Source: SAR324 cluster bacterium (lineage in GTDB: Bacteria > SAR324 > NAC60-12). From it: a stretch of 48,117 bases of DNA. The notes under the pieces were generated by a model. It was not told the origin of the DNA, did not search any database, and saw only the letters and a list, made by a program, of their open reading frames with translations. Of the stretch, positions 1 through 48,117 are shown piece after piece. The translations under genes were made by a program, and so were the position numbers. The stretch is taken from assembly GCA_016764995.1 (NCBI GenBank), contig JAESQU010000215.1, forward strand, positions 1 through 48,117, in the 5' to 3' direction. How positions within the stretch are numbered: position 1 is the stretch's first letter; each line of letters starts with the position of its first letter.

Positions 1-613
1 GCCGGTCAAAGAAGGTGCGGATTTAATGACCGGCTCGACTTACAAAAGTTTTGGCGGTCCGCCTTCCGGAATGATTTTGACCAATTCCGCGGAATTGGCG
101 CAGCGTTTAGATAAAATTGCTTTTCCCGGACTTACCGCTAATTTTGATCTCAGTCGTGCAGCCGCAATGGTTATATCCGTTTTGGATTTGCTGACCCACG
201 GAAAGGAATATGCGCGGATGTGCATCGCCAACGCCAAGTCACTAGCGGAATCTCTGCATTCCGGAGGGTGTGAAGTATTTCATGTTTCCGGAAAAGGGTT
301 CACGAACTCATAACATGTGGCCGTTCCCGCTGCAGTTTTTGGTAGAGGAGACATTGCGTCAAAGCAGCTGGAAAAAGCTAATCTCCTTACCAGTGGAATT
401 GGTTTGCCTTTACCAGCGGTTGCGGTAGACTTCAACGCGATGCGACTGGGAACCCAGGAAATTACACGCTGGGGTATGCGTCCGGAAATTATGGAAACGA
501 TTGCGGACTTTTTCTGTCGTGTACTTGTCCAAAAGGAAAATTCGGAAAAACTAAAATCCGCAGTGATTGAATTCCGGAAAGAATTTCAAAAGCTGCATTA
601 CATTCGTGCTTAA
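1..613 (+). pseudogene. glyA: Serine hydroxymethyltransferase-like PLP enzyme, C-terminal part (5' end outside the window), interrupted by an in-frame TAA at 311-313
   Basis: ORFs 26-313 and 317-613 share one frame. They carry ADLMTGSTYKSFGGPPSGMIL (PLP-lysine motif, canonical TTHKTLRGPRGG) and the SHMT C-terminal RLGTQEITRWG motif. The stop may be real or a sequencing error. Confidence 0.75.
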
Positions 614-645
614 AGAACTTCTGGAGATTTATAAAAAAAGTTTGA

Positions 646-1119
646 TTAGTATATGTTTTCATAGCCGACTTCTTTTAAAAGCGCAATTTCGAGTTCCAGC
701 ATTTCACTGGCTTCATCTGCGGAACGTTCGTGATCCCATCCGGCGATGTGAGCACAACCATGTGCTAAAAGGCGAATAAGTTCTGTTTCAAAATCCCATC
801 CGTTTTCCTCGGCCTGTTTCCGGACTCGTTCCACAGAAACCACTAAATCACCTGCCAGTTCAACATCTTCAGATTCGTCAATTTTCGGTAAACTCAATTC
901 AACATCATCTTCAGTATATGGCCAGGAAAGGATATCCGTGGGACTGTTTTTGCTGCGGAATTGCTGATTTAGTTTTTGGATTTCCGTATCATCGGTGACG
1001 TACAGTGAAATGCCGCGCTCACTTTCAAACAAGTGCCATAGAAAAACTTTTAAAATCTCCGCGAGCTGTTTTTGATTTATCAAACCTTGCCAGTCAGCAT
1101 CGCAGCGGATTTCAATCAT
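646..1119 (-). CDS. ybeY: rRNA maturation endoribonuclease YbeY
   Basis: LNQQFRSKNSPTDILSWP, GDLVVS and HGCAHIAGWDH (HxxxHxxGxDH) motifs. Confidence 0.95.
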   Translation of the reverse strand: MIEIRCDADWQGLINQKQLAEILKVFLWHLFESERGISLYVTDDTEIQKLNQQFRSKNSPTDILSWPYTEDDVELSLPKIDESEDVELAGDLVVSVERVRKQAEENGWDFETELIRLLAHGCAHIAGWDHERSADEASEMLELEIALLKEVGYENIY

Positions 1120-2959: not shown

Positions 2960-2972
2960 AAAACCTGCTTAG

Positions 2973-4364: not shown

Positions 4365-4398
4365 TTGTCATCTTCATCAAAAGTGTGTATGATACACA
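4365..4398 (+). promoter_or_regulatory. Sigma70-type promoter of hicAB-1 with an overlapping palindromic operator
   Basis: TTGTCA (4365-70), 17-bp spacer, TATGAT (4388-93). Perfect inverted repeat TGTGTAT-G-ATACACA (4384-98) overlaps the -10 box, as expected for HicB autorepression. Confidence 0.7.
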
Positions 4399-4589
4399 TA
4401 AAAAATAGTCGAGAAATTATAAGGCGGTTAAAAAAAGATGGATGGCAACTACACCATATTAAAGGTGACCACCATCAGTTCAAACATCCGGAAATATCTG
4501 GAAAAGTTACTGTGCCGCATCCTAAAAAAGATTTTCCTATAAAAACTTTAAAGAGCATATATCAACAAGCCGGTTGGAATTGGAGATAA
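4389..4589 (+). CDS. hicA: HicA-family mRNA interferase toxin (start codon uncertain)
   Basis: NSREIIRRLKKDGW...KGDHHQFKHP...GKVTVPHPKKDFPIKTLKSIYQQAG is a classic HicA signature. Confidence 0.92.
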   Translation: MIHIKNSREIIRRLKKDGWQLHHIKGDHHQFKHPEISGKVTVPHPKKDFPIKTLKSIYQQAGWNWR

Positions 4590-4592
4590 ACC

Positions 4593-4994
4593 ATGAAATA
4601 CCCAATTGTATTACACAAAGAAAAAGATTCTGATTATGGAGTTACTATTCCTGATGTTCCAGGGTGCTACACTGCAGGTTCGACGATAGAAGAAGCAATA
4701 GCAATGGCTCAAGAAGCGATACAGTGTCATCTTGAGGGACTATTGATTGACAAAGAGCCACTTCCCTTAAGCTCTTCAATAGAAGAAAATCAAAAAAACC
4801 CTGATTTTGAAAATGGCATATGGGCAATAGTAGATATTGATATTGCTAAGCTATCAATAAAATCTAAAAGAGTAAATATAACTATTCCGGAAACGGTACT
4901 TCATTCAGTAGACAAATATGCCAAACAACATGGGGAATCACGTTCCGGGTTGCTTACTCAAGCCGTAACAGAATATATGGAAGTTCACAATTAA
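4593..4994 (+). CDS. hicB: HicB antitoxin with C-terminal ribbon-helix-helix domain
   Basis: YGVTIPDVPGCYTAGSTIEEAIAMAQEAI and KRVNITIPE...GESRSGLL; starts 3 bp after hicA. Confidence 0.93.
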   Translation: MKYPIVLHKEKDSDYGVTIPDVPGCYTAGSTIEEAIAMAQEAIQCHLEGLLIDKEPLPLSSSIEENQKNPDFENGIWAIVDIDIAKLSIKSKRVNITIPETVLHSVDKYAKQHGESRSGLLTQAVTEYMEVHN

Positions 4995-5012
4995 CAATAT
5001 GAAAAACAATCA

Positions 5013-5053
5013 CAACCAGTAGGACAGCAAAAAACCGATCTGTTTATTGGTTG
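5013..5053 (+). terminator. Imperfect hairpin downstream of hicB-1 (possible terminator)
   Basis: CAACCAGTAGGACAG pairs with CTGTTTATTGGTTG, using G-U pairs and one bulge. Confidence 0.4.
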
Positions 5054-5288
5054 CTAAGATGCTTTTGTGAAATGATTCCGGGGCTATTATCTACTTGTAA
5101 TGAATAATTGTAATGAATATCTATTATACAGGGAAGAGGTCTGATAATACCTAAGTCAGAGGTTTATACTGTTTAATTGACAGGATATTTTTTGTGAGTC
5201 AAAATTATCTGATTTACCGAATAATATCGGATTTTCAGGGGAAATGTAACTATTAATAATAAGATAACTCAATATTAAATGAGGGACA

Positions 5289-5596: not shown

Positions 5597-5807
5597 TCAT
5601 GAGCATCAGAGGCATTGGAGCAGTTGTAATATTTTTATTTTGTTTTTTTAGGATTAATGTCAGTGGTTGGTAATGTACATGTCGCTGAGTTTTTTTGAAT
5701 ACTTGGCTTAGGTGCATTTGCTTCTGTTATTGCGTTCTTGAAATTACCAAAATCAAAAAAATAAGTAGATAATACCAATTCATATAATCAGCACTAATTT
5801 TCAGTGA

Positions 5808-6065: not shown

Positions 6066-6067
6066 TT

Positions 6068-8512: not shown

Positions 8513-10912
8513 TCACGGTTTTTGCAGCCACTCCTCAACGGTTCTTCGATCTTGAGATTTAAGCATAAAATCTTCCTCCAAAATGGATAATATTTGCTGG
8601 GGCATAATTGTGCTGAGTGTTTTTGAGTCATCAAAACCGAGCAAAACTCTAAGCAAACGTTGGTAAACTTCCAAAGGAGAACCTGTGGAACTTGCATTGA
8701 GTTTAAGTTGTTTTTCGATTCCAGGTGGCACCTCGAATTGACGTTTTAAATCATTGTAATCAAAAGGAGTATTGTTGTTACTATAATATCCATGAGGCAA
8801 AAATTTCAATCTAGCAAAATTATTCAGAAATTCATGTGTTGTTTTGCTTTTAGCTAAATCCTGTTCAAGCTCAATTTCAATACCGACCCCCAGTTTAAAG
8901 GAACTTTCCATTTTGTTCAACAAGGTAAAAAATGTGTGAGTGTTTGTTAACACTTGATAGATCATTTTTCCCTCCGATGAAGACAATGATTTGCAGGTCT
9001 CTTTCAGGGCTTTCATTTGAAATGCTGGAAAAGGATCATAAACAGATTTTTTCCCACTTTTAGGCAATTTGGCGGATTTATCAATTTTTGTTGATTTATG
9101 CATTACGGTTTTTGTTTGCACAGGTGTCTGCACTGTTTTTTCAACCACACTTGCGAGTTCCGATTTCTGTAAAGCTGCTTTCATTTTCTGAGCCTGTATT
9201 CTGGCTCCAACAGGTCTTAACTCTGAGCGTAGTTCTTCGACAAAACGCTGTTCCTCTTTGGAGCCTTGACCTAACATTTCATCCAGCAGCCAATTTAGTT
9301 CCTCAACTTGTTCCGCACTTTTCCGCAAACTCTTTTCGGAAAATTTACCCTCACTTCCGAGCAGTGCTCTTGTTTGCTCGTACAAGGCTGCCGCATCAAG
9401 ATTTTGTTCGCGCAGTTTTGCTAGTTCAAGCCAAATTGATTCAACTTCCTTGATGGCACTCTTCAGCAAAGCACAGGTTTGGGTGACACTTCCAAAATTC
9501 AATGCCGCGGATGTTAATCTCGTGTTTTCATCATAAGCTTTCTGCAAAAAATTATAAGTTTCCCTGGAGTTCCATTCTGAAGCATTTGAAAGTGTTTCCA
9601 AAAATCCTTTGATTTGTTCACAATATTGCCGCATCTCCTTTTTACCCTCTTCCAGCAAATCAAGCGCGTATAACATTCCTTCGGTTATTGGAGCGTCAAA
9701 CAAATCAACATCTTTTAAGTTTTGCTGCAATTGATTTAGTTTTTGTGTTTTTGAGTCAGCAACACGTCCGCCTTTTTCCAACATTCCTTTGATCAAACCC
9801 AGGACTTTAAACAGGAAAGGACTGGTTATAGTATGTGTAGACGCATTGTGATAGATCTTGCCAAAGGAGATGGAAAGGTTTTGCAAGATGCCGGACACCT
9901 CCCGGAAAGTTTCGTCAACACCGCTTAAGGTCTTAATAAAAAGTTGCAGATGCTCCAACTCCTGTGTAGCATGGTCGTGGAATTGAGCAATGCATTTTTC
10001 TTGACCGTCACTTTCTTTTTGTTCCGAAAGTGTATTTAGATGTTTTTTGAAAATTTCCAAAGGTTCAAAAGGAATGCGGAGCAAAAACATGCGCAGAAGC
10101 ATGTCTGTACGGGACATTTCGTATAACTCAAGACCCCACTCCGGAATTATTTTTGAGGTTGGTATTTTTACATTCTTAAGATTTCTTTCAAAGCCGGAAA
10201 GTTTTTCCAGGATTTCATCTGGTGAAAAAGTTTCTGCGGTCGTTTTTTTTGCAAGAGCAACTTTCATAGCCTGCTTCTCCAAATCCTGGATTCGGCTGAC
10301 ACTTTGGAAATATTTATAAACGGATTGCACTTCCTCGATGGACATTGGGGGATCAAAGCTGCTGACATTTTTATTTTTCAGCAGTGTTTCAGCAAGTGGC
10401 GCGGCTTCCGAAAAGAGTTTTTCAACTTCTTTTTTTGCCGATTCATCAACAGCAGCGTCAATTGGCAAAAGCATCCATTTCCCTTGTTGAAGACCGTCAC
10501 GGGTACTCCTGATTTTTTTGAGGGATATTTCGATTGCTTTTCCTGCTGAAAATCCGAGGGGCTCAGTACCATAAAATCCCTGATCCAGACTGAGGTGAAT
10601 GCAATCAGCTTGACGCTTGATTTGATGGTTCATCTTCAGAAAACGATCAGCCTCTCTATTGAAATGTTCCGGACTGCGGCATTTATCGTAAAGCTCCTTG
10701 TTGGTCCGATTTATTTCTGTGAGCATGGAAAAAATACTTTCTGGTTCACCAGCTTGAAAAATCCAGCGGTTTTCTTTGCTCAGAGCTGTACGAACAAATT
10801 GAGTTATTTCTTTTGCTTCCCTTACAGCATCCTGAACTTGGGAAACAGGTTTCCTCTCAGCGTGCAGGGCCGCCTGGGCATGTTTTAATTGTTCAAGTGT
10901 ATTAGTGGACAT
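8513..10912 (-). CDS. Hypothetical 799-aa helical/coiled-coil protein
   Basis: Long uninterrupted ORF with RBS GGAG, rich in E/K/L/Q. No family motif recognised. Confidence 0.8.
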   Translation of the reverse strand: MSTNTLEQLKHAQAALHAERKPVSQVQDAVREAKEITQFVRTALSKENRWIFQAGEPESIFSMLTEINRTNKELYDKCRSPEHFNREADRFLKMNHQIKRQADCIHLSLDQGFYGTEPLGFSAGKAIEISLKKIRSTRDGLQQGKWMLLPIDAAVDESAKKEVEKLFSEAAPLAETLLKNKNVSSFDPPMSIEEVQSVYKYFQSVSRIQDLEKQAMKVALAKKTTAETFSPDEILEKLSGFERNLKNVKIPTSKIIPEWGLELYEMSRTDMLLRMFLLRIPFEPLEIFKKHLNTLSEQKESDGQEKCIAQFHDHATQELEHLQLFIKTLSGVDETFREVSGILQNLSISFGKIYHNASTHTITSPFLFKVLGLIKGMLEKGGRVADSKTQKLNQLQQNLKDVDLFDAPITEGMLYALDLLEEGKKEMRQYCEQIKGFLETLSNASEWNSRETYNFLQKAYDENTRLTSAALNFGSVTQTCALLKSAIKEVESIWLELAKLREQNLDAAALYEQTRALLGSEGKFSEKSLRKSAEQVEELNWLLDEMLGQGSKEEQRFVEELRSELRPVGARIQAQKMKAALQKSELASVVEKTVQTPVQTKTVMHKSTKIDKSAKLPKSGKKSVYDPFPAFQMKALKETCKSLSSSEGKMIYQVLTNTHTFFTLLNKMESSFKLGVGIEIELEQDLAKSKTTHEFLNNFARLKFLPHGYYSNNNTPFDYNDLKRQFEVPPGIEKQLKLNASSTGSPLEVYQRLLRVLLGFDDSKTLSTIMPQQILSILEEDFMLKSQDRRTVEEWLQKP

Positions 10913-20804: not shown

Positions 20805-20968
20805 ATTCTCACCATTTTTACAAAATTATTGTAAGTATTAGAAACAATTTCGTCGACTTCCAGCAGACACATTAGCAGATACAAACTAAAGAGCAAGATA
20901 TTCAGATTTAATAATAGTAATTTAAGGGAAAGAATTTTTGGAACTTAGCTGAAGATTGTCCGGATTTA

Positions 20969-21367
20969 CTACTGTTCTATAATGGTATCTTCCGGACGGG
21001 TTGACTTGTTTTGAGTCTCAATTTTACTCTTCAACCAGGATTTTATCGCATTTCTGGTGCTAGGAATCAGCAGGACAAATCCGAATGTGTCTGTTAAAAA
21101 ACCTGGAGTCAACAGCACAAGTCCGGCTACTCCGATTAACAGGGCATCAAGTAATTCCGCAGATGGCATCCGTCCCTCTCGTAAACTTTCCTGGATACGA
21201 AACAAGGTTTGCAAACCCTGTATTCGAGCCAAATATGCTCCCAAAAATCCGGTAAAAATTACCAGAGCAATTGAAGTGAATGCACCAAAAGCTGATCCAA
21301 TTTGTATCAACAGGTAGATTTCAACTACTGGAATGATGGTAAAGGCGAGGAATAATTTTAATAACAT
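20969..21367 (-). CDS. fxsA: FxsA-family membrane protein
   Basis: IPVVEIYLLIQIG...ARIQG...AGLVLLTPGFLTDTFG. Confidence 0.93.
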   Translation of the reverse strand: MLLKLFLAFTIIPVVEIYLLIQIGSAFGAFTSIALVIFTGFLGAYLARIQGLQTLFRIQESLREGRMPSAELLDALLIGVAGLVLLTPGFLTDTFGFVLLIPSTRNAIKSWLKSKIETQNKSTRPEDTIIEQ

Positions 21368-22919: not shown

Positions 22920-23789
22920 TTAACTTGCTTTAAGCAGAGCTTCTTCCACATCTTCATCAATGTTTTGCAAATTGTACCAGTAAATGATGTTTTTTTCAAA
23001 ATTCTCATGTGCTGTGCAGTGAATTGCTGCGAGCTGATCAACCTGTACAATAGTGATAATATGTAAACGCACCATTTCCAGAATAGACATGAAAGTAATG
23101 ATAAACCAGATTCTTGGTTTGTCTCTTTGAAACAATTCTTCAAAAAGGCAATGCGGTTGTTCTGCGAAACGCGCAATCAGTTCATCAATGCGATCTTCAA
23201 TTCGTACACTTTCTGTTTCAATTACATATCTATTTATTTTTGGAAGCCGCCTCATTACGCGCTCAAAGGCTTCCATCAACGCGGAAACAGAGATGTCTTC
23301 GTATTCCGGATCAGCTTCTTCTGTATCTGAAACCAACTCGACATTTTCCGGACGTTGAAAAACATCACGCCCCAAAATATCAAGTGAACCAAGTTCAAAT
23401 GCGGCGTTTTTGTAATGCTGATATTCTAGTAATCGGCGGCGCAGAATCTCTTCCGGATCCTCTTCTTCAAACTCTTCAATATCCACCGGAGATTTGGGAA
23501 GTAAACTGCGGGACTTGATTAAAATCAACATGGCTGCAATTTCTAAAAACTCTCCGGCCAAATCGAGATTGATCGATTGCAATTTTTCCAAATATTCCAA
23601 ATACGACGCTGTTAATTCGGAGAGCCGTACTTCTGCAATTGAAACTTCTTTTTTCCTAATGAGATGCAGCAGCAAATCAAGCGGTCCCTCAAACAAAGGG
23701 ATTTTGATTTCCAGGGGATTCTCCGGATTTGGAAAAATTGTGGATAGCTCCACGTTTTTATGCTGATCTTCCATTGTTTCCATTCTCAT
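22920..23789 (-). CDS. scpA: Segregation and condensation protein A (start uncertain among several ATGs)
   Basis: FEGPLDLLLHLI, AGEFLEIAAMLILIKSRSLLP, L..RLLEYQHYK, TFMSILEM. Confidence 0.95.
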   Translation of the reverse strand: MRMETMEDQHKNVELSTIFPNPENPLEIKIPLFEGPLDLLLHLIRKKEVSIAEVRLSELTASYLEYLEKLQSINLDLAGEFLEIAAMLILIKSRSLLPKSPVDIEEFEEEDPEEILRRRLLEYQHYKNAAFELGSLDILGRDVFQRPENVELVSDTEEADPEYEDISVSALMEAFERVMRRLPKINRYVIETESVRIEDRIDELIARFAEQPHCLFEELFQRDKPRIWFIITFMSILEMVRLHIITIVQVDQLAAIHCTAHENFEKNIIYWYNLQNIDEDVEEALLKAS

Positions 23790-23834: not shown

Positions 23835-26546
23835 TTAATCAGAAAGTTCGGGAAGCCCCATATCTTCCAGCACTTGATTGGATATTTTATCGAGTTCATT
23901 TGCTTTTTTGAAACGGGAACTGGCACGTTGATTAACTCTTTCCAAATCTGCTTTTGTCCGGATAATGGTTGGACGAATAAAAATGAGCAGGTTAATTTTT
24001 TCAAATCCATCTTTTTTGCTGCGAAATAACCATCCAATTAAAGGGATATCTCCAAATCCCGGAATTTTACTCCGTTCACGAACCATTTTTTCTTTGATCA
24101 AACCACCAAGTACAATAATCTTTCCATCTTCTGCAATCACAGAGGTTTTGATGGTACGTTTAAAAATCGTGATTGGGTTGGCTGCCGGGTTCACAACATC
24201 ACTGGACTCCTGGGCAATATCCAGTCGTATACTGTTTTTTCCACTGATCTGCGGTTTAATTTCAAGTTTGATACCAACTTCCTTAAATTGGTACTCTGTT
24301 GTGGTAATATTACTCGCGCTGGTAACAGTTTTTGGTGAAACAGGCACGACGGAAACAACACTAATGTTAGGTACTTCACCCTCTTGGGGATTGTTGATAA
24401 TCATCAACTGCGGATTTGCGAGGACATTTACATCATTGTTATTTTGGACTGCTTTGACAAATGCACCGAAGCTAAAAAATTCTTTTCCTCCAATACTGAT
24501 TGTATTGCCGTTCAAGACTCCAATTGTATTTTCAGCGGCAGTAGTTGCCGCGGTACCTCCTGTTGTGGCGTCTCCCGTGAAAGCTCCTCCTCCAGGGAAT
24601 CCACCCGTAATTATTCGATTTCCGCTAGTAGCTCCTGCGGCTTTCCAGTTTATGCCTAAATCTAAACTTTTTGAAAGCGTAACTTCCATGATAAGCGCTT
24701 CAACATAAACCTGCATTCTCGGCACATCAAGTTCAACTATAATCTGATCCAGAGTTTTGAAGGCGTCCGCCGGTGCAAAAATCAAAAGGGAATTTGTTGC
24801 CTCATCGGCGCTGATTGAAATGTCAGACTGTGTTCCTGAACCGGCAGTTTTGGACAGTGCTTTACTAAGTTGCGGCTTTTCATCTTTCCGGGAAACCTCT
24901 GAAATTCTTCCGGTAACTTCTTTAAGTAAAACAGCAATGTCTTTAGCTACCGCGTGCTGGAGATGATAAAGTTTAAAATTACTGCGAACTTTTCCGCTTT
25001 CCTGGAAAACATCGAGTTGTTTTATCAAAGATAATATTCGTTCGATCTCAAGCCGTCCCGCGATAATGATCAAAGAATTCAAACGTTCTTCTTCAATAAT
25101 TTTAACCGGACTTGCTTTTGCGGTATTACCCTCACCTTTTCCGGCAACAACTCGGTCCGAAAATATTTTTGTCAGGAGATTTGCCATTCTCTTGGCAGAA
25201 GTGTTTTTCAGCGGAATCAACTTGAGCTGTGTTTCACCGGAAGTTCCTTGTTCTGTGTCAAGTTTTGCGATCAGTAGGAGAACCCTGTCAGTTGCCAAAC
25301 GATCCGCGATGATGATCAGGGCATTCAGTCGAGGTTCCGCTATTATTTTAACCGGACTGCCTGTCGCGGTTGCTCCCTCTCCCTTACCAGCAACAACCTT
25401 ATCCGCGAATATTTTTGAAAGCAAAGGAGCCAATGTCGTGGCGGAAGCATAGTTTAATTGCTGCAGCATTATCTGACGGTTCCCTCGTGGAATATCAAGT
25501 TGATCGACCAAGTCGATAATTTGCTGAGTTGTAACAGGATTTGCAATAATAATCAGGGCATTAAAAGGGGCAAACGGAACAATTTTTATTGAAGTTGTTT
25601 TGGGGAAAACAGTCGTAATTAGCGGAACCAGCTTTGCCGCGTCAGAATATTTTAATTCATGAATAGTTGTTTTTGCGCCTTCTACAGGGACATCAACTTT
25701 TTCAATTAATTCAATAATTTCTTCCGTTGTTTCACGATTTGCGACGATGAACATGGAATTTAAGCGAGCCTCAATCAGCAGTTTGAATTGCGTCGGCTTG
25801 CCGTTACGTACTAAATTTGAAAACAATTCAGAAACGGTTTTGTGAATTTCTGTAACATCGTTGTGTAAAATTTTCTGTAAAGTAACAATCTGCTCCACCC
25901 CTTCCGGTGCGGAGGTGTCAAGCATCTCAATGAGTTCCACGATACGGCTTACGTTGGACTCAACATCGATTACAATCAACATGTTCATCGGCTCATAAAC
26001 GAGCAGAACTCCTGTCTTGGAGAAAATTGGCTGCAATGTTGACTGTATCCCCTTGAGGTCTGCATGAACAATGGGAATCAGACGCATCACATAGTTTCCA
26101 CCTTTAGCGCTGATCTTCCCGCCGTCCTTTGAAATCGGCAACCGCGAGAAACGTGCGTCTGCTGAAGGAAGTATTTCCACGACTTTACTCCCTTTTTTGC
26201 GCACCATTGCCAAACCTTGACTGGCCAGTATTTTTTCAAAGAAGAAAAATGCGTCTTGCGGAGTTACTTTGAAATTGCGTGGAGCCGTAATAGACATTTG
26301 TCCGCGCATATTCTTTTCTTCGTAAACAAAAACGGTTCCGGTATTTTCCGAAATTATTTTAATGAATTCTTTGAGGATGATTGTTTGAGGCAGGTTGATG
26401 CTGACCTTTGAGCTGGGTTTCTTTTTTGCTGCTTCAAGTTCAAAAGGCTGCGAAATATGAAACAGTAAAAGGCAAAGTAAAAAAAATCCGGACAACCAAT
26501 TATGTTTCCGGAGCGACTTGGAAATAGAGGTAAAAAAGAAAATCAT
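23835..26546 (-). CDS. gspD: Type II secretion secretin GspD with an expanded N-terminal repeat region
   Basis: N0 domain, six Secretin_N-type repeats, LDVPRMQVYVEALIMEV, VGIKLEIKPQIS, IVLGGLI, KIPGFGDIPLIGWLFRS, LLIFIRPTII. Confidence 0.92.
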   Translation of the reverse strand: MIFFFTSISKSLRKHNWLSGFFLLCLLLFHISQPFELEAAKKKPSSKVSINLPQTIILKEFIKIISENTGTVFVYEEKNMRGQMSITAPRNFKVTPQDAFFFFEKILASQGLAMVRKKGSKVVEILPSADARFSRLPISKDGGKISAKGGNYVMRLIPIVHADLKGIQSTLQPIFSKTGVLLVYEPMNMLIVIDVESNVSRIVELIEMLDTSAPEGVEQIVTLQKILHNDVTEIHKTVSELFSNLVRNGKPTQFKLLIEARLNSMFIVANRETTEEIIELIEKVDVPVEGAKTTIHELKYSDAAKLVPLITTVFPKTTSIKIVPFAPFNALIIIANPVTTQQIIDLVDQLDIPRGNRQIMLQQLNYASATTLAPLLSKIFADKVVAGKGEGATATGSPVKIIAEPRLNALIIIADRLATDRVLLLIAKLDTEQGTSGETQLKLIPLKNTSAKRMANLLTKIFSDRVVAGKGEGNTAKASPVKIIEEERLNSLIIIAGRLEIERILSLIKQLDVFQESGKVRSNFKLYHLQHAVAKDIAVLLKEVTGRISEVSRKDEKPQLSKALSKTAGSGTQSDISISADEATNSLLIFAPADAFKTLDQIIVELDVPRMQVYVEALIMEVTLSKSLDLGINWKAAGATSGNRIITGGFPGGGAFTGDATTGGTAATTAAENTIGVLNGNTISIGGKEFFSFGAFVKAVQNNNDVNVLANPQLMIINNPQEGEVPNISVVSVVPVSPKTVTSASNITTTEYQFKEVGIKLEIKPQISGKNSIRLDIAQESSDVVNPAANPITIFKRTIKTSVIAEDGKIIVLGGLIKEKMVRERSKIPGFGDIPLIGWLFRSKKDGFEKINLLIFIRPTIIRTKADLERVNQRASSRFKKANELDKISNQVLEDMGLPELSD

Positions 26547-36788: not shown

Positions 36789-36800
36789 ACAAAGGTAACT

Positions 36801-37580: not shown

Positions 37581-37709
37581 AACTGGTTGAAGCTTAGAGT
37601 TTAGCCTCGAACAAAGAGTATTAACTTTTAACTTTTTTCATAATATCTATGCGAAGCAATGGAATGTATCGCCTGATATCTTTTCTAATTCAGTTTAAGG
37701 AGAAATAAA

Positions 37710-39316: not shown

Positions 39317-39380
39317 ATGATGCACTCTTAAAAAGTCCTAAAATCGTGTCATTGCTTACGAAGCGAGAACTCTTGTATAA
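39317..39380. repeat. Dispersed intergenic repeat, copy 2
   Basis: Shares ATGATGC, TAAAAA, TGTC, TTGCTTACG and CGAGAA blocks with 30665-30729. Confidence 0.6.
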
Positions 39381-42359: not shown

Positions 42360-43349
42360 ATGTCCAAACTGAATGAAATGATTCGTGAATTTCGCGAAGA
42401 CATCGGCCAGAGCACCGAAGGTTTAGCGTTACTGATGCAAATGGATCAGGAAGAGTATGCGCGTTTGGAAAAAGATTGGATTCCGCCGGATGACATTCTT
42501 CAGCGGTTGTGCGCACTCTTTGAATGGAATTATAAGGACATTAAACGGCTTGCCGATAATACTCCCTCCGTAAAAAATAAAAAATCAAATCCGGAAAATA
42601 AAAAAGCTTCTGTTACCGAAAATAATTCTGCCGAAGTTTCCACGACTCCTTTTGCAAAAATGATCAAGGAAGCCCGCAGTGCAGCCAAACAGGATGCGCG
42701 GGGCATTGCCATTTTGTTGGGTATCTCTGCTGATTATTACCAAGAGTTTGAAGCGGGCGTAATTCCTCCGGATGATTTGCTGCGCAAATTAAGTTCTTTG
42801 TTTGGTTGGAATTACAAACAAATTCTGCAAAAAATCAATACCCAGAGTACAGTTCTGTTTGGCAACCGGCAACCTCTGCTTCATGCCAAGGAAATTCGGG
42901 CGCGCTTGCCAAAGCTCGAATTACCGGATATTCCGGATGTTCCCGCACCTGTTTCTCTGCATGTGAAAATTCTAGAAGCGAGAACTGAGGCGAAACAAAA
43001 TGTGGACGGAATTTCCCTCTTATTGCAAATTAATCCTGAATTGTATGAGCAGATTGAATCCGGAACTGTGAATCCTGATCCGGATTTGTTAAAACGAATT
43101 TCTTCTCTTTTCGGTTGGAATTATCATGAATTGCTGAACCGTGAAAAAAATTCACAATTCAGTCAACTGCTTCCGGCAATCATTGCACGGGATTCTCCGG
43201 ACAATTCGCTGACTGAAATTAAACTCAGAAAAGTTCAGCAGGAAATTTCGGAAAATTGGCAGAAAATTTCCAAAGAGCAACAGAAAACACTGCTGACTCA
43301 ATTGGAATTCATTCGTGGTTCAATGGAAAACCTTGACAATGAGAAATGA
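42360..43349 (+). CDS. Protein with three tandem XRE/Cro-like helix-turn-helix domains
   Basis: Three ~55-aa repeats IxExR...GxxxLLxxxxxxYxxxE...PxxDxLxxxxxLFxWNY. Confidence 0.82.
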   Translation: MSKLNEMIREFREDIGQSTEGLALLMQMDQEEYARLEKDWIPPDDILQRLCALFEWNYKDIKRLADNTPSVKNKKSNPENKKASVTENNSAEVSTTPFAKMIKEARSAAKQDARGIAILLGISADYYQEFEAGVIPPDDLLRKLSSLFGWNYKQILQKINTQSTVLFGNRQPLLHAKEIRARLPKLELPDIPDVPAPVSLHVKILEARTEAKQNVDGISLLLQINPELYEQIESGTVNPDPDLLKRISSLFGWNYHELLNREKNSQFSQLLPAIIARDSPDNSLTEIKLRKVQQEISENWQKISKEQQKTLLTQLEFIRGSMENLDNEK

Positions 43350-44184: not shown

Positions 44185-44185
44185 A

Positions 44186-44794: not shown

Positions 44795-44865
44795 TCGATA
44801 TCTCAAAACTTAGAAGTTCCTCTCCCTGGAGAGTGGTAAAAAAGATCAAATGGAGGGCTAAGGCC

Positions 44866-45749
44866 CCACTCGGCACCCTCGCAGGTTCCGGAACATTGGG
44901 TTTGTTGATCCCTCCTTCTATTATTTTGATTGTTTATGGTGTTGCCATAGAGGAATCCATCGCACAGCTTTTCGTAGCTGGTGTATTCCCTGGCATTTTA
45001 CTGGTTTTTCTGTTCATGGGCTATATTGTCTTCTGGTCTCTGTTCAACAAAGACCGAATGCCCCCCGCAGAGCCACGTACACCAATGTGGCAACGGATAA
45101 AGGGCACTCGCAGTTTGTTGCCGATCTTATTTCTAATTGGCGGTATTATTGGATCCATCTACGCCGGCTGGGCTTCTCCTACTGACGCGGCGGCGGTGGG
45201 CGTGGTACTGTCCCTGGTGCTTTCCTGGTACAATGGCAGCTTGAATCGATGAAGCTTTTTGGCAGCTTTGATGGTGGCAACCCGGACCTCCTGCATGATT
45301 GCCTTTATTCTGGCTGGCGCGCATTCTTGACTGTAGCCCTGGGTTTTACCGGTATTGCACGGTTCTTGGCTCAGTGGGTCGGCTCATTGGGATTGAGTCC
45401 TAATATGCTGCTTGTTACCCTGTCCATATTTTTCGTAGTCCTTGGTTGTTTTCTTGAAGGCATATCGATTGTGGTCTTGACCACAGCGGTGATCCAACCT
45501 ATCATAGAACAAGCGGGGATCGACCGGATCTGGTTCGGTATCTTCATTGTCATCGTTGTCGAGATGGCGCAAATCACCCCGCCGGTGGGATTTAATCTAT
45601 TCGTAATACAAGGTTTGACCGGTTATAATATACAGTATGTGGCGCGTGCCACCTTGCCATTCTTTATCCTGTTATTGGCCGCTGTTATAATTATTTCGGT
45701 TTTTCCGGAAATCGTTACCTACCTACCCGAACAGATGTCGAGGCGCTGA
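44866..45749 (+). pseudogene. dctM: TRAP transporter large permease DctM, 5'-truncated and disrupted
   Basis: Begins mid-protein at GTLAGSGTLGLLIPPSI; in-frame TGA at 45250-52 and a frameshift near 45321; C-terminal ITPPVGFNLFV and FPEIVTYLP. No dctP or dctQ nearby. Confidence 0.8.
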
Positions 45750-45859
45750 AGCTAAAATCGTCGCAAGAGAATATAAGGGCTCATTTCAATTCAATGAACG
45801 GGTAAGTTAATTTCTGCGTAAACTTCTCTTTATATCCCGTTAATTTACTGATTAATTTT

Positions 45860-48117
45860 ATGACAGCACCTTCCTTCCGTTTTTCAATTGATCGTGGGGG
45901 TACCTTCACTGATGTTTATGCGGAAGTTCCGGGCGAGCCAGAATTCCGGGTGGTAAAATTACTTTCAGAAGATCCGCAAAATTATCCGGACGCTCCACGC
46001 GAAGGTATCCGCCGAATTCTTGAATCAGTAACTGGTGAAACTTTTCCAAAAGAAAGTTTTAATGCCGAAAAAATTGAGTGGATTCGGATGGGTACAACTG
46101 TCGCCACCAACGCTCTTCTGGAACGTAAAGGCGCGAAAACTGCGCTGGTTACAACTAAAGGTTTTCGGGATTTACTGCAAATTGGAAATCAAAGCCGAGC
46201 AAAAATTTTTGATCTGAAAATTCAGAAACTGGATTTGCTTTATGAAGAAGTAATTGAGGTTAATGAGCGTGTCCGGATTTTTAAGAATTCAGGGAATTCT
46301 AAGCTAGATTCCGGCTTAGAGATTGTTGAAGGCACAACCGGAGAGCAATTTGCTGTTTTGGCAAAACCGGATTTGGTAGTTGTACGTCAAGAGTTGAAAG
46401 CAGTTTTTGAAAAAGGTATCCGTGCGGTGGCAGTGGTGTTTTTGCACGCTTACGCATTTCCGGAACATGAACGCCAAATTGGTGTGATTGCACGTGAAAT
46501 CGGTTTTGAGCAAATTTCACTTTCGCATGAAGTTATGCCGATGGTCAAAATGGTGGCGCGTGGCGATACTACCACCGTTGACGCATATCTCACACCGCAC
46601 ATCCGGAATTATCTGGAAAGCTTCCGTTCCGGATTTTCTGATAATTTGGAAAAAACACAGTTGCTTTTTATGCAGTCCGACGGAGGTTTGACCGATTCCG
46701 GAAACTTCAAGGGCAGCAATGCCATTTTGTCCGGACCGGCCGGAGGCGTCGTAGGTTATGCCATGACCACAGATTTGGGACAACCGGTCATTGGCTTTGA
46801 CATGGGCGGCACCTCGACGGACGTTTCGCGTTACGGTGACGATTACGAATTGGTGCATGAAACCGAAACCGCCGGAGTGCGTATCCAAGCACCGCAAATG
46901 CACATCAAAACGGTTGCGGCCGGAGGAGGATCAAGACTGTTTCTTCGCAACGGACTTTTCGAAGTTGGCCCGGAATCTGCGGGTGCGCATCCGGGACCGG
47001 TCTGTTACCGGAAGGACGGATATTTGGCGGTCACTGACGCCAACTTGGTTTTGGGGCGTTTGCATCCGGAATATTTTCCTAAAATATTTGGTACAAACGA
47101 AAACGAAGCTCTCGACCTTGAAGCATCCAGAAAGTCTTTTGAAAAAATAACTACCGAAATTAATGTATATTCCAGAGAGCGAGACCTTCCGGAATTGTCG
47201 AAGGAAGAAGTCGCCCTCGGATTTTTGCGGGTCGCAAACGAAGTCATGGTGCGTCCCATTCGTGAAATTTCGGTCATGCGTGGCTTCGACATCAAGGAAC
47301 ACGTACTGGCCTGTTTCGGCGGCGCGGGTGGACAGCACGCTTGCAGCATTGCCAGAGAGTTAGGACTCTCCAAAATTTTCATCCACCGTTTTTCCGGCAT
47401 TCTTTCTGCTTACGGAATGGGGCTCGCCGACATTGTGGTAGAAAAACAAGAACCAGCGGCGTTGGTGCTAACTGAAGACAAAAAGGACAACGGGCTTAAA
47501 AATCTCTTAATAAATCTCGAAAATTTAGCCGCTGATGCAAAAACAGAATTGCTTGCTCAAGGCTACAAAACTGAACAAATTGAAATCAAGCGTTATCTTA
47601 ATTTGCGTTATCAAGGCACTGACACAGCGTTGATGATTCCGGAAGCGGATTCAGTTTCAAATTATGACACAGGAATTGCGAATTGTGAGTTAGGCATTTC
47701 AGAATCAAGTCCGGAATTGCAGAAAAACGCAAAGAAGTTTCCGGATTATGTCAGCACTTTTCGGGAAACTTACCGACGTGAATTTGGTTTCGAATTGACA
47801 GGACGTGAAATTATTGTGGACGATTTACGTGTGCGTGCGGTTGCAAAATCTCCTGGATTACAAAAATTTACTCTTGCGAAAAAAGACGGGACTCCGGAAG
47901 CAGTAGACCAAACTAAATGTTATTTCATGTCCGAAAGTTCTGGTTCCGGAAGTTGGCAGCAAACACCGATTTACCGCCTGGAAAATTTGGGTGCCGGACA
48001 ACACTTACAAGGTCCTGCGATTGTGATGCAGAATACTTCTACGATTCTTGTGGAACCAGGATGCACGGCTGAAATTACGGAATACGGCGATGTGGTTTTG
48101 AACGTCGAAACCAAAAC
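45860..48117 (+). CDS. ATP-dependent 5-oxoprolinase / hydantoinase-family protein, running off the 3' end
   Basis: Absent from the ORF track because no stop occurs in the window. Motifs IDRGGTFTD, KLLSEDPQNYPDAPREGIRRIL, IRMGTTVATNALLERKG, LSGPAGGVVG, DMGGTSTDV, VAAGGGS, GPESAGAHPGP, FGGAGGQHAC. Confidence 0.93.
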   Translation, partial: MTAPSFRFSIDRGGTFTDVYAEVPGEPEFRVVKLLSEDPQNYPDAPREGIRRILESVTGETFPKESFNAEKIEWIRMGTTVATNALLERKGAKTALVTTKGFRDLLQIGNQSRAKIFDLKIQKLDLLYEEVIEVNERVRIFKNSGNSKLDSGLEIVEGTTGEQFAVLAKPDLVVVRQELKAVFEKGIRAVAVVFLHAYAFPEHERQIGVIAREIGFEQISLSHEVMPMVKMVARGDTTTVDAYLTPHIRNYLESFRSGFSDNLEKTQLLFMQSDGGLTDSGNFKGSNAILSGPAGGVVGYAMTTDLGQPVIGFDMGGTSTDVSRYGDDYELVHETETAGVRIQAPQMHIKTVAAGGGSRLFLRNGLFEVGPESAGAHPGPVCYRKDGYLAVTDANLVLGRLHPEYFPKIFGTNENEALDLEASRKSFEKITTEINVYSRERDLPELSKEEVALGFLRVANEVMVRPIREISVMRGFDIKEHVLACFGGAGGQHACSIARELGLSKIFIHRFSGILSAYGMGLADIVVEKQEPAALVLTEDKKDNGLKNLLINLENLAADAKTELLAQGYKTEQIEIKRYLNLRYQGTDTALMIPEADSVSNYDTGIANCELGISESSPELQKNAKKFPDYVSTFRETYRREFGFELTGREIIVDDLRVRAVAKSPGLQKFTLAKKDGTPEAVDQTKCYFMSESSGSGSWQQTPIYRLENLGAGQHLQGPAIVMQNTSTILVEPGCTAEITEYGDVVLNVETK

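What the first reader, a model, noticed from the sequence alone, without database searches (positions are those of the whole stretch)
65..47951. Highly iterated palindrome TCCGGA (often TTCCGGAA) across the window: a possible HIP1-like system outside cyanobacteria
Seen: a manual count gives about 92 TCCGGA (~1.9/kb), of which 24 are the longer palindrome TTCCGGAA. Base composition alone (~40-41% GC) predicts about 7-8 and <1. The motif occurs in all three coding frames (TCC-GGA Ser-Gly at 14015, CCG-GAA Pro-Glu at 14938, ATC-CGG-ATA Ile-Arg-Ile at 17740), so one codon pair cannot explain it. One-off variants (TCCGGN, TTCGGA/TCCGAA, TCTGGA/TCCAGA) also look common. Established: palindromes are usually depleted in bacteria; the known exception is cyanobacterial HIP1 (GCGATCGC), linked to methyltransferases. 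TCCGGA is the BspEI/AccIII/Kpn2I site. Inference: a genome-wide mark maintained by a solitary methyltransferase plus biased repair, or a nucleoid, recombination or uptake signal. I know of no description of it for this lineage.
Basis: partly seen in the sequence, partly recalled or inferred. Interest (0 to 1): 0.85.

Follow-up and report, generated by a model that had tools for sequence, protein, structure and literature searches.

The report
Helically phased TCCGGA palindrome in SAR324
A six-letter DNA palindrome, TCCGGA, is written thousands of times into the genome of an uncultured marine bacterium, and neighbouring copies keep step with the pitch of the DNA helix, which points to an unknown protein that reads this mark.

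Summary
It is genome-wide. TCCGGA is the commonest hexamer of the 2.65 Mb MAG (5,247 sites, O/E 11.5) and ranks first of 4,096 under Markov orders 0-3. It stays 3.6-fold enriched over synonymous-codon shuffles in all three frames and is enriched 8-12 fold in genes and spacers alike. Of the X-Pro-Asp/Glu contexts that could encode it, 51% do.

The lineage is the marine SAR324 cluster. The trait is patchy across 88 SAR324 genomes and graded within the genus. A sample of viral contigs chosen for motif pairs includes motif-dense ones, among them a Desulforamulus ruminis prophage.

New here: neighbouring sites follow a 10.4 bp helical period. They are 2.7-fold in excess at 30-33 bp and depleted at half-turns. 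The signal is carried by realised motif pairs; synonymous shuffling reduces it to a weak residue. A sister genus shows the same period with the opposite phase.

A Dcm/Vsr-type mechanism is not supported: G000 holds no intact C5 methylase, Vsr, SeqA or MutH. One Dam-like orphan methylase exists but does not track the motif.

Best reading: a site read by a protein that senses two sites at once. Its function is open.

The parts
65..47950 (.). 92 copies of the palindrome TCCGGA spread over the whole window (1.9 per kb): 68 lie wholly in called genes and 24 wholly outside them
   Evidence: Counts and positions. About 7.7 are expected from base composition.
64..47951 (.). 24 of the 92 sites are the extended palindrome TTCCGGAA. 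The first starts at 64 and the last at 47944.
   Evidence: The genome-wide flank logo shows T at -1 (0.51) and A at +1 (0.49) and nothing beyond.
20959..20996 (.). Site pair 32 bp apart (about 3 helical turns)
   Evidence: Genome-wide, pairs at 30-33 bp number 148 against 55.8 +/- 7.4 expected.
23305..23352 (.). Site pair 42 bp apart (about 4 turns), inside the secretin gene region
   Evidence: Genome-wide peak at 41-42 bp.
26487..26512 (.). Site pair 20 bp apart (about 2 turns)
   Evidence: Genome-wide peak at 20-22 bp: 82 pairs, against 16 at 14-17 bp.
43059..43084 (.). Site pair 20 bp apart (about 2 turns)
47710..47745 (.). Site pair 30 bp apart (about 3 turns)
47893..47950 (.). Site pair 52 bp apart (about 5 turns)
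   Evidence: In the window 6 of the 11 pairs at 56 bp or less are within 1.6 bp of an integral number of 10.4 bp turns. The window alone is too small to show the phasing.

Best explanation
TCCGGA (weakly extended to TTCCGGAA) is a true, lineage-specific, highly iterated palindrome of a marine SAR324 bacterium.

Shown: a directional force acting on DNA as such has driven the word to near saturation. It works on synonymous codon positions in all three frames and on spacers alike, and it acts uniformly over all genes. The force depends on geometry. A second site is favoured at 2, 3 or 4 helical turns from an existing one and disfavoured at half-turns.

Inferred: the word is the recognition site of a dimeric, sequence-specific DNA-binding protein or enzyme that senses two nearby sites at once on the double helix. 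The thousands of mostly single sites would be kept by weak selection for that binding, or by a repair or conversion bias coupled to it. That would make it a chromosome-wide 'self' or structuring mark. It is not a by-product of codon usage, and it is not the output of a C5-methylase/Vsr pair.

Open: the identity of the protein, and whether methylation is involved.
For: Enrichment is at the DNA level.
- Ser-Gly is TCC-GGA in 1,560 of 4,635 cases. Independent codon use predicts about 250.
- Occupancy of synonymously possible contexts is 33.7% (Ser-Gly), 11.3% (Arg frame) and 51.2% (X-Pro-Asp/Glu).
- O/E is 11.8 in genes, 8.7 in gaps of 400 bp or less and 8.0 in longer gaps.
- Per-gene counts are no more dispersed than Poisson: chi2/df 0.77 over 1,962 ORFs.

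Helical phasing.
- The all-pairs distance spectrum peaks at 10.4 bp with power 15.3. None of 300 frame-preserving jitter nulls exceeds 3.3.
- Pairs at 30-33 bp number 148 against 55.8 +/- 7.4. Pairs at 14-17 bp number 16.
- The signal is present in each distance class mod 3, and in coding-only and non-coding-only pairs.
- Control hexamers show none.
- Synonymous shuffling drops the power to 2.1.
- Pairs of realised sites give power 13.5, realised with unrealised contexts 1.9, and unrealised with unrealised 1.5.
- Occupancy of possible contexts beside a realised site is 1.4-1.6 times baseline in phase and 0.5-0.8 times out of phase.
- Partial sites are phased too.
- The phased pairs at 31 bp lie in unrelated, unique genes.

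Conservation of the phasing.
- All 14 g1 genomes with at least 5 pairs, G000 included, have more pairs at 30-33 than at 25-28 bp. Examples: 178/17, 162/42, 108/25.
- Genus g21 has the same 10.3 bp period with the opposite phase: 7/42, 11/69 and 2/23. In G065 the forbidden/allowed ratio per distance is 0.12, against 0.91 after synonymous shuffling.

The force is still acting. Of 70 positions aligned in four genomes, 15 are G000-only sites and 3 are lost only in G000.
Against: - No candidate binding protein was identified.
- Only 700 of 5,247 sites sit in phased nearest-neighbour pairs, and chains of three are rare (12 against 6.3 expected). This is not an array or filament code.
- Orthologous site conservation (26/59 and 30/58, against 17.8 and 18.9 from control hexamers) is about what independent 34-51% equilibrium occupancy would give. 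Individual positions are therefore not demonstrably constrained.
- The Poisson-uniform spread over genes and the equal enrichment in spacers are just what a mutational or conversion drive predicts.
- No SeqA or histone-fold protein was found in G000, which is 85% complete.
- Phase preference differs even within genus g2 (G049 31/68 against G050 128/79). That is awkward for a deeply conserved architectural protein.
- Gene calls were crude: ATG-to-stop ORFs of at least 120 aa.
Confidence: 0.4

Rival explanations
1. HIP1-like methylation ratchet. An orphan methyltransferase marks TCCGGA or its CCGG core, and a methylation-aware repair step or reader converts near-sites into sites. This is Elhai's model for HIP1. 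The phasing would come from a reader or nuclease that needs two marked sites on one face, as I recall for SeqA with GATC.
For: G000 encodes one orphan amino-methyltransferase, P0001 (C6:8221-9714, 498 aa).
- It scores 27.6 bits on PF01555 against a cut-off of 26.7. The G001 orthologue scores 38.9.
- Motif I is VFDPFMGGGTV and motif IV is TSPPF. The family-wide pattern is S-P-P-[YF]-P-G-x-Y-D-Y.
- The predicted fold (core pLDDT above 90) is closest to E. coli Dam and T4 Dam, TM about 0.5.
- Its neighbourhood is housekeeping (mnmG-EamA-P0001), with no nuclease beside it.

Elhai 2015 (abstract and passages read) links each HIP to a cognate methylase, one of them specific for rCCGGy.
Against: P0001 does not follow the motif.
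- Full-length orthologues occur in 8 of 12 motif-free f2 genomes, with a ninth in pieces. They also occur in 7 of 9 genomes of motif-free g19, and in g13 and g17.
- It was not found in motif-rich G008, G010 and G017 (74-87% complete) or in motif-enriched G046 (95% complete).

Other families:
- C5 methylase: only a 55-aa remnant in G000, and matches at E<=0.001 in 2 of 17 other g1 genomes, both fragments.
- Vsr: none in G000. One sub-threshold match among the 18 other f1 genomes.
- SeqA and MutH: none in G000.
- The only other clear DNA methylase is a type I HsdM-like gene at a contig end.

The specificity of P0001 is unknown, and it could be an RNA methylase: Trm11-type folds score nearly as well.
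Confidence: 0.22
2. DNA-uptake or recombination signal spread by molecular drive, as with USS and DUS. The uptake or recombination machinery would prefer fragments carrying TCCGGA, so the word accumulates everywhere through homologous replacement.
For: - The density of about 2 per kb, the presence in all frames and in spacers, the uniform spread over genes and the rapid turnover with lineage-specific gains all fit a drive.
- ComEC and DprA are present.
- Search listings (titles and the start of abstracts only) show a 2024 preprint reporting that HIP1 raises transformation efficiency, and a 2026 paper linking HIP1 to a secretion system and horizontal transfer.
- Within the genus the motif rises with GC, as would a recombination-linked bias.
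Against: - ComEC and DprA do not discriminate: they hit 11 and 12 of the 14 control genomes.
- As I recall, known uptake sequences are non-palindromic 9-12-mers. A 6-mer gives little specificity.
- A single-site uptake receptor does not predict attraction at whole turns and repulsion at half turns, nor a phase flip between genera.
- Sites are clustered rather than evenly spaced (CV 1.19).
Confidence: 0.13
3. Intrinsic DNA mechanics. TCCGGA is a bendable or kinkable element, and selection acts on curvature or supercoil handling. In-phase copies would add their bends (g1) and half-turn copies would cancel them (g21). No dedicated reader would be needed.
For: - The period is 10.3-10.4 bp, the helical repeat, and both phases occur in different lineages.
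- The interaction is short-range and pairwise.
Against: - The specificity is too sharp for a shape effect: TCCGGA 11.5 against TCCGGT 2.7, TGCGGA 3.6 and TCGGGA 0.7.
- A-tracts and other 4-mers are hardly phased around the sites (AAAA relative amplitude 0.06).
- Spacers of 30-32 bp pairs show no composition pattern.
- It does not explain why 87% of sites are single.
Confidence: 0.1
4. By-product of codon usage, dipeptide content or a simple context-dependent mutation bias, with no function or reader.
For: - Under an order-4 Markov model O/E is 1.07.
- Sub-words stay about 1.6-2.0 fold enriched outside full sites.
- Most orthologous differences are single third-position changes.
Against: - Enrichment persists at 3.6 fold against synonymous shuffles in all three frames, and at 8-9 fold in spacers.
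- It ranks 1st of 4,096 hexamers under Markov orders 0-3.
- A simple context bias does not give helical phasing or out-of-phase depletion.
- Sister lineages of similar GC lack or avoid the word.
Confidence: 0.03

Closest known systems
HIP1 (GCGATCGC) and alternate HIPs of cyanobacteria
   Same: - A short GC-rich palindrome at about 1-2 per kb, many-fold over-represented.
- Present in all reading frames and in non-coding DNA, and lineage-specific.
- Lost or replaced in some relatives, with one-off variants also raised.
- More conserved than control words.

Sources: Elhai 2015, PMC4390886, abstract and passages read. Xu et al. 2018, PMC5861425, abstract and passages read. My results.
   Different: - A different word (6-8 bp with a CCGG core) in a different phylum (SAR324).
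- No cognate methylase tracks it, whereas HIPs go with cognate orphan methylases.
- HIP1 periodicity was reported at 10-90 kb, and the word 'helical' does not occur in that paper. Here the periodicity is 10.4 bp at under 60-90 bp range, with a lineage-specific phase.
Uptake signal sequences (USS of Pasteurellaceae, DUS of Neisseriaceae); recalled, not from a call
   Same: - About 1 per kb, in both orientations, inside genes in several frames, and shaping codon and peptide choice.
- Explained by a drive rather than by per-site function.
- Dialects differ between related lineages.
   Different: - Those are non-palindromic 9-12-mers recognised singly.
- I know of no reported attraction or repulsion between copies at helical distances.
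- Uptake specificity is untested here.
Dam/SeqA reading of GATC in Gammaproteobacteria; recalled, not from a call
   Same: - A 4-6 bp palindrome marked by an orphan Dam-type methylase.
- That is the range where the excess is strongest here (21-42 bp).
- P0001 has a Dam-like fold.
   Different: - No SeqA or MutH family protein in G000.
- As I recall, GATC is not many-fold over-represented in E. coli.
- Methylation of TCCGGA is unknown.
- P0001 does not track the motif.
Dcm/Vsr very-short-patch repair bias at CCWGG; recalled, not from a call
   Same: A sequence-specific repair activity that can raise the frequency of its own target word genome-wide.
   Different: G000 has no intact C5 methylase and no Vsr. 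Across the other f1 genomes searched, C5 matches are fragments in 3 of 18 and Vsr gives one sub-threshold match. The effect size here is far larger.
BspEI/AccIII/Kpn2I restriction-modification site (TCCGGA); recalled, not from a call
   Same: It is the same hexamer. Some SAR324 lineages avoid it almost completely (0 sites in 40 kb and in 20 kb; 2-7 TTCCGGAA per genome), as expected under restriction.
   Different: In G000 the word is at saturation rather than avoided. No cognate methylase-nuclease pair was found.

Membership tests
Highly iterated palindrome (HIP) in the sense of Elhai 2015 and Xu 2018 | A palindromic oligomer many-fold over-represented genome-wide at about 1 per kb | tested here: met
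   5,247 sites in 2.65 Mb, O/E 11.5. It is the commonest hexamer and ranks 1st under Markov orders 0-3.
Highly iterated palindrome (HIP) in the sense of Elhai 2015 and Xu 2018 | Enriched in all three reading frames and in non-coding DNA, beyond codon usage | tested here: met
   Frame counts are 1560/502/2459, against 353/103/789 after synonymous shuffling. Spacers show O/E 8.0-8.7.
Highly iterated palindrome (HIP) in the sense of Elhai 2015 and Xu 2018 | A cognate, usually orphan, methyltransferase whose presence goes with the motif | tested here: not met
   C5 methylase: a remnant only. The Dam-like P0001 is present in motif-free g19 (7/9) and f2 (8-9/12). It was not found in motif-rich G008, G010, G017 and G046. 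Its specificity is unknown.
Highly iterated palindrome (HIP) in the sense of Elhai 2015 and Xu 2018 | Sites more conserved between genomes than control words | tested here: inconclusive
   26/59 and 30/58 conserved against 17.8 and 18.9 expected from frame-matched hexamers, but 8/59 against 13.3 in a motif-poorer relative. The excess is about what 34-51% equilibrium occupancy gives.
Highly iterated palindrome (HIP) in the sense of Elhai 2015 and Xu 2018 | The motif is methylated in vivo | not testable with these tools
   No native-DNA kinetics or signal data are available. Passages of Hiraoka 2022 contain no CCGG motif, and SAR324 does not occur in the paper (occurrence count).
Uptake signal sequence (USS/DUS) | Preferential uptake of DNA bearing the word by a competence system | not testable with these tools
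   ComEC and DprA are present, but they also hit most of the control genomes.
Uptake signal sequence (USS/DUS) | A non-palindromic 9-12-mer core (recalled definition) | tested here: not met
   The core is a 6-bp palindrome with only a weak T/A extension.
Dam/SeqA-type paired-site reading | A SeqA family reader (PF03925) | tested here: not met
   No match in G000, which is 85% complete. The control rings in E. coli.
Dam/SeqA-type paired-site reading | Excess of site pairs on one helical face within a few turns | tested here: met
   Peaks at 21, 30-33 and 41-42 bp, with troughs at 13-17, 25-28 and 35-40 bp.
Dcm/Vsr very-short-patch repair | An intact C5 cytosine methylase (PF00145) together with a Vsr endonuclease (PF03852) | tested here: not met
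   G000 has a 55-aa C-terminal methylase remnant with stops around it, and no Vsr. Vsr passes its cut-off in 1 of 31 genomes (G024, in f2).
Alpha-class (Dam-like) DNA amino-methyltransferase: membership of P0001 | AdoMet motif I followed by an inserted target-recognition domain and then the catalytic (D/N/S)PP(Y/F) motif, on a Dam-like fold | tested here: met
   Motif I is at about residues 180-187 and TSPPF at about 370-374, with a helical insert at 206-340. PF01555 scores 27.6 bits against a cut-off of 26.7. The top Foldseek hits are Dam and T4 Dam. DNA rather than RNA as substrate is not settled.

The most novel reading that the evidence does not exclude
SAR324 bacteria, and probably other lineages whose phages and prophages carry the same word, write a sequence-specific, helix-registered mark into their whole chromosome. 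An unidentified protein reads TCCGGA dimers on defined faces of the double helix. The preferred register, same face or opposite face, has flipped between genera. This would be a new kind of bacterial chromatin or 'self-DNA' code that shapes both codon choice and protein sequence. It would differ from HIP1, from uptake sequences and from restriction-modification.
Probability: 0.35. Interest if true: 0.92.

Novelty: new variant of a known kind. Interest (0 to 1): 0.82.

Why it matters
Highly iterated palindromes have been a cyanobacterial curiosity for three decades without an agreed function. Here the same kind of signal appears in an abundant, cosmopolitan, uncultured marine phylum. The window's DNA recurs nearly word for word in marine metagenome runs from about ten studies. 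The signal is close to saturation: half of all suitable Pro-Asp/Glu contexts carry the word.

It also gives a new and testable clue. Copies sense each other at the pitch of the double helix, and the preferred register differs between genera. That ties the phenomenon to the geometry of a protein-DNA contact. It also yields clear predictions for pull-downs, methylome data and phylogenetic profiling.

The patchy, graded distribution over 88 genomes offers natural contrasts for finding the determinant. A cultured Firmicute whose prophage carries the same word may offer a laboratory handle.

On the practical side, the word distorts codon-pair statistics and restriction maps, and it could serve as a binning and host-assignment signature for SAR324 and its phages.

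Tried and rejected
Ideas tested and rejected.
- Repeat-family origin of the phased pairs. The 42 pairs at 31 bp lie in unrelated unique sequences, 36 in coding and 6 in non-coding DNA.
- Protein-level periodicity. Pairs of unrealised peptide contexts show no 10.4 bp signal, and synonymous shuffles lose it.
- An alternate palindrome in the motif-poor members of the genus. None was found in 82-100 kb samples of G002, G007, G009 and G011.
- AAGGCCTT as an alternate HIP in f7. AGGCCT reaches only O/E 1.6-2.9 in samples of G086 and G089.
- Motif-free islands or depletion in highly expressed genes. The 5 kb windows with 0-2 sites are the dnaK operon, transporters and a molybdopterin oxidoreductase, with no rRNA. 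Per-gene counts are Poisson, so the gaps are chance.
- Long arrays of phased sites. Chains of three number 12 against 6.3 expected, and there are none longer.
- A spacer composition signal, or different flanks in paired sites. Neither was found.
- Histone-fold, SeqA and MutH proteins. Not found in G000.

Steps that led nowhere.
- Host assignment of the motif-dense viral contigs. L293 has no match among named phages, and its tail protein has only unnamed relatives. L239 is distantly related to Eggerthella phage PMBT5, which itself lacks the motif (3 sites in 30.9 kb, O/E 0.4).
- Population variants. Runs were found but I did not lay reads. At 0.95-0.96 shared words, too few variants would fall on sites.
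- Supplementary files of papers were not opened. Supplements of the marine methylome papers might list motifs for SAR324-like bins.
- Control used by the pattern searches: it is the reversed word AAGGCCTT, itself a palindrome, so it is only a rough yardstick.

Full report
OBSERVATION. The 48,117 bp window (GC 41.7%) holds 92 TCCGGA and 24 TTCCGGAA. From the base counts I calculate about 7.7 and about 0.7 expected. The three frame examples agree with the ORFs. The window is contig C185 of a 2,648,432 bp assembly in 224 contigs, rated 85% complete.

In the whole assembly TCCGGA occurs 5,247 times (1.98 per kb). It is the most abundant of all 4,096 hexamers, ahead of AAAAAA, with O/E 11.5 on base composition. 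TTCCGGAA occurs 1,244 times (O/E 33). The next most enriched 6-bp palindrome, AAATTT, reaches 2.5. All 88 contigs of at least 10 kb carry it at 0.8-3.1 per kb. Beyond the hexamer, only the flanking T (0.51) and A (0.49) carry information.

I used a crude gene set: 1,962 ATG-to-stop ORFs of at least 120 aa, covering 79% of the DNA.
- The three frames hold 1,560, 502 and 2,459 sites. Ser-Gly is TCC-GGA in 1,560 of 4,635 cases, where independent codon use predicts about 250.
- Ten genome-wide synonymous shuffles give 1,245 +/- 30 sites against 4,521 observed (O/E 3.6), with all three frames enriched. Ten within-gene codon shuffles give 759 +/- 21 (O/E 6.0). Control palindromes lie at 0.3-1.1.
- Markov models of order 0, 1, 2 and 3 give O/E 11.5, 9.9, 2.7 and 1.9, and TCCGGA ranks first each time. 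Only order 4, which feeds in the word's own 5-mers, gives 1.07.
- With full sites masked, CCGG, TCCG and TCCGG remain only 1.6-2.0 fold enriched.

The refutation criteria are therefore not met.

Of all peptide contexts that could encode the word synonymously, 33.7% (Ser-Gly), 11.3% (x-Arg-x) and 51.2% (X-Pro-Asp/Glu; 2,459 of 4,799) do so. Enrichment is nearly the same in genes (O/E 11.8), short spacers (8.7) and long gaps (8.0), with dips right at starts and stops. Per-gene counts are no more dispersed than Poisson (chi2/df 0.77). Motif-free stretches such as the dnaK operon are therefore chance, not islands.

WHO AND WHERE. Homologues of a protein of this genome carry the names 'SAR324 cluster bacterium' and, in one case, 'Candidatus Lambdaproteobacteria bacterium'. 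The nearest contigs are titled as marine 'Deltaproteobacteria' or 'Proteobacteria' MAGs. The window's DNA recurs at 0.95-0.96 of sampled words in marine and seawater metagenome runs from about ten studies.

Across 88 genomes of the phylum the 8-mer is patchy.
- High: most of genus g1, and g2, g20 and g21. Moderately raised: g12, g15 and g16 of the same family.
- At background: g19 (9 genomes, up to 99% complete), g13, g17, g18 and most of family f2.
- Mildly raised: parts of f7.
- Almost absent: f7 g38-43 and some f2 genomes, with 2-30 copies per genome.

DNA samples show 0 TCCGGA in 40 kb of G086, 20 kb of G089 and 40 kb of G021, as expected under restriction.

Within genus g1 the enrichment is graded and rises with GC: O/E 1.2, 1.8, 2.4, 3.6 and 4.3 at 33-38% GC, and 8.8-12.6 at 41-44%. 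A 60% GC genome of g2 still shows 6.6. The motif-poor members show no substitute palindrome.

A scan of viral contigs for two TTCCGGAA copies about three turns apart returned 114 loci. That sample is biased towards the motif. Of the 114 loci (only those of at least 5 kb were eligible), 27 have at least 1.3 sites per kb, at GC from 40% to 67%. One of them (L271, 23 sites in 13.7 kb) encodes a tape-measure protein 100% identical to one of Desulforamulus ruminis, a cultured Firmicute. The trait therefore probably exists outside SAR324. I could not examine any host chromosome to confirm this.

THE NEW FEATURE: HELICAL PHASING. Distances between all pairs of sites in G000 are not random at short range. 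The far baseline is about 10-14 pairs per bp. Against that, there are peaks at 11 (19 pairs), 21 (41), 30-33 (38, 42, 33, 35), 41-42 (28, 30) and 51 bp (24). There are troughs at 13-17 (2-6), 25-28 (6-12) and 35-40 bp (6-13). The Fourier maximum is at 10.4 bp (power 15.3). GAAAAA, TGCGGA, AAATTT, CAATTG and GAATTC show no such period.

None of 300 nulls reaches power 3.4. These nulls move each site by a random multiple of 3 bp within +/-60 bp, which keeps frame and local density. Pairs at 30-33 bp number 148 against 55.8 +/- 7.4.

The signal is present in each distance class mod 3 (relative amplitude 0.37-0.41). It is also present in coding-only and non-coding-only pairs. The 42 pairs at 31 bp lie in unrelated unique sequences.

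It is a property of the DNA word, not of the encoded peptides.
- Pairs of realised sites give power 13.5 (amplitude 0.61).
- Realised sites with unrealised contexts give 1.9 (0.14).
- Unrealised with unrealised contexts give 1.5 (0.08).
- Synonymous shuffling leaves power 2.1.

Next to a realised site, the occupancy of possible contexts is 1.44, 1.58 and 1.42 times baseline at 20-22, 30-33 and 41-43 bp. It is 0.54, 0.82 and 0.81 times baseline at 13-17, 25-28 and 35-39 bp. Partial sites (CCGG, TCCG and CGGA outside full sites) are phased with full sites as well.

The interaction is pairwise and short-range. Chains of two number 332 against 182 expected, and chains of three 12 against 6.3. Singletons number 4,547 of the 5,247 sites. 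Spacers show no composition pattern.

PHASING IN RELATIVES. All 14 g1 genomes with at least five such pairs, G000 included, have more pairs at 30-33 than at 25-28 bp: 148/34, 178/17, 162/42, 108/25, 91/35, 68/4, 62/19, 59/14, 47/11, 41/16, 36/2, 33/14, 31/13 and 7/4. In genus g20, two of three genomes agree and the third is level (24/9, 48/13, 13/14).

Genus g21 is reversed (7/42, 11/69, 2/23), as are G049 of g2 (31/68) and G041 of g12 (13/36). G050 and G018 of g2 are not reversed (128/79, 70/36).

A 460 kb sample of G065 (g21; 1,107 sites, 2.4 per kb) has a 10.3 bp period (power 7.7). Pairs sit near 9, 27, 38, 48, 58, 68, 78 and 88 bp, and almost none at 11-23, 30-35 and 40-43 bp. In its ORFs the 'forbidden' to 'allowed' ratio per distance is 0.12, against 0.91 after synonymous shuffling. 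Both regimes follow the helical repeat, with opposite registers.

EVOLUTION. I aligned the window to three relatives at 78-82% nucleotide identity. G000 sites are conserved in 26 of 59 and 30 of 58 cases in the two motif-rich relatives, against 17.8 and 18.9 expected from frame-matched hexamers. In the motif-poorer relative they are conserved in 8 of 59, against 13.3 expected.

Given 34-51% equilibrium occupancy, this is roughly what independent occupancy of conserved peptide contexts would give. I therefore cannot claim positional constraint.

Of 70 positions aligned in all four genomes, 15 carry the site only in G000 and 3 lack it only in G000. Non-site orthologues differ mostly by one base (85 of 144). 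Folded onto the half-site, those changes fall chiefly at the inner C of the CpG (C>A 28, C>T 17) or at the outer T (29), which are third codon positions. The word is being created and lost continuously under a standing directional force.

MECHANISM: WHAT THE GENES SAY.
- C5 methylase (PF00145). G000 has only a 55-aa C-terminal remnant in an AT-rich stretch beside a ParE toxin ORF. Matches at E<=0.001 occur in 2 of 17 other g1 genomes, both fragments.
- Vsr. None in G000. It passes the cut-off in 1 of 31 genomes, and that genome is in f2.
- PF01555. The genome-level search found nothing in G000. A direct scan showed that a 498-aa ORF (P0001, C6:8221-9714) just passes the cut-off, at 27.6 bits against 26.7.
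- P0001 has motif I (VFDPFMGGGTV) and, about 190 residues later, TSPPF. The family pattern is S-P-P-[YF]-P-G-x-Y-D-Y. Its N-terminal 120 residues are disordered and basic. The confidently predicted core has E. coli Dam and T4 Dam as best structural matches, with tRNA m2G enzymes next. Its neighbourhood is housekeeping (mnmG-EamA-P0001) without a nuclease.
Full-length orthologues occur in 8 of 12 f2 genomes with a ninth in pieces, in 7 of 9 g19 genomes, and in g13 and g17, all motif-free. It was not found in motif-rich G008, G010 and G017 or in motif-enriched G046. MAG incompleteness weakens the absences but not the presences.
- A type I HsdM-like gene sits at a contig end.
- SeqA, MutH and histone-fold families were not found. 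ComEC and DprA are present, as in most of the control genomes.

INTERPRETATION. Shown: a strong, uniform, DNA-level force favours TCCGGA, and the force depends on the helical register of a neighbouring site. Inferred: some protein recognises the word, probably as a dimer on the palindrome, and senses a second site within a few turns. I consider this core inference likely (about 0.7). My reasons are that the period equals the helical repeat, that it appears as both attraction and repulsion, that it is specific to this word, and that its register differs between lineages.

Whether the protein is an architectural binder kept by weak selection, a methylation-linked reader or nuclease, or part of an uptake or recombination route is not decided. 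I put 0.40 on the binder reading. An occupancy of about 50% against an expected 6-10% needs a scaled advantage or bias of about 2-3 (my estimate, not from a call). That is plausible for either selection or biased conversion in a very large marine population.

NOVELTY. Three full-text searches found no paper on genome-wide enrichment of this word: 'TCCGGA' with 'palindrome' (13 papers), 'TTCCGGAA' (69 papers, 25 listed) and 'highly iterated palindrome' (17 papers). 'SAR324' with 'methylated motif' found none.

The HIP1 papers I read in part describe methylase association and 10-90 kb periodicity, not helical phasing. These were Elhai 2015 (abstract and passages) and Xu 2018 (abstract and passages). 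I therefore file this as a new variant of a known kind, the iterated palindrome, with one feature that I could not find described: helix-registered spacing with a lineage-specific phase.

LIMITS.
- Gene calls are crude.
- Genomes other than G000 were seen only through pattern counts and samples of 17-460 kb.
- The pattern 'control' is another palindrome.
- The viral sample is biased towards the motif.
- Methylation and binding could not be tested.

Noticed in passing
window 39329-39377 (spacer after flgE): A dispersed repeat of about 45 bp. It has 8 further copies of 41-53 bp at 89-96% identity, plus two shorter matches of 21-25 bp, on other contigs of G000. It also has dozens of matches in two related genomes. 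It is neither a tRNA nor an Rfam family.
   Followed up: partly
L187-L189 (G069, family f4, 60 kb sample): A different CCGG-core word is on top in this 35% GC genome: GCCGGC at O/E 12.4 (23 copies), CGCCGG at 12.2 and CCGGCA at 9.8, while TCCGGA is at 1.5. It may be another iterated palindrome, or it may reflect GC heterogeneity.
   Followed up: no
G021, G026, G023 (family f2); G086 and G089 (family f7): Some SAR324 lineages avoid TCCGGA almost completely. There are 0 sites in samples of 20-40 kb, and 2-7 TTCCGGAA per genome. G021, G026 and G023 carry 21-26 matches to the N6_N4 DNA methylase family. This is the opposite regime, consistent with restriction pressure on the same word.
   Followed up: partly
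L271 (IMGVR_UViG_650716033_000003); also L239, L286, L327, L293: Viral contigs with host-like TCCGGA density (1.7-2.8 per kb, O/E 6-13) at GC 40-67%. L271 is a prophage whose tape-measure protein is identical to one of Desulforamulus ruminis. The named Eggerthella phage PMBT5, a distant relative of L239, lacks the word.
   Followed up: partly
G000:C26 about 4380-5070 (L003 1136-1830): A 55-aa C-terminal remnant of a C5 cytosine methylase lies in an AT-rich stretch next to an 88-aa ParE-family toxin ORF. It looks like the relic of a decayed mobile module.
   Followed up: yes
G000:C6:8221-9714 (P0001; outside the window): A SAR324-wide conserved Dam-like methyltransferase with an SPPF/SPPY catalytic motif and a disordered, Lys/Ser-rich N-terminal tail of about 120 residues. 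It lies downstream of mnmG and an EamA transporter. Its substrate is unknown.
   Followed up: yes
samples of most SAR324 genomes (L075-L114, L175-L192): CTGCAG (with GCAGCA and CTGCTG) is about 3-4 fold over base composition in nearly all SAR324 samples, whatever their TCCGGA status. This probably reflects codon and peptide usage.
   Followed up: no
window 23835-26546 (- strand), 34746-39194 (+ strand), 11078-12997 (+ strand): Gene content of the window: a 903-aa secretin with five Secretin_N repeats and a GspD-like N0 domain, flagellar fliK and flgE, dxs, citrate synthase, an aldehyde dehydrogenase and a hydantoinase/oxoprolinase. An 799-aa ORF (8513-10912, - strand) has no Pfam match.
   Followed up: no
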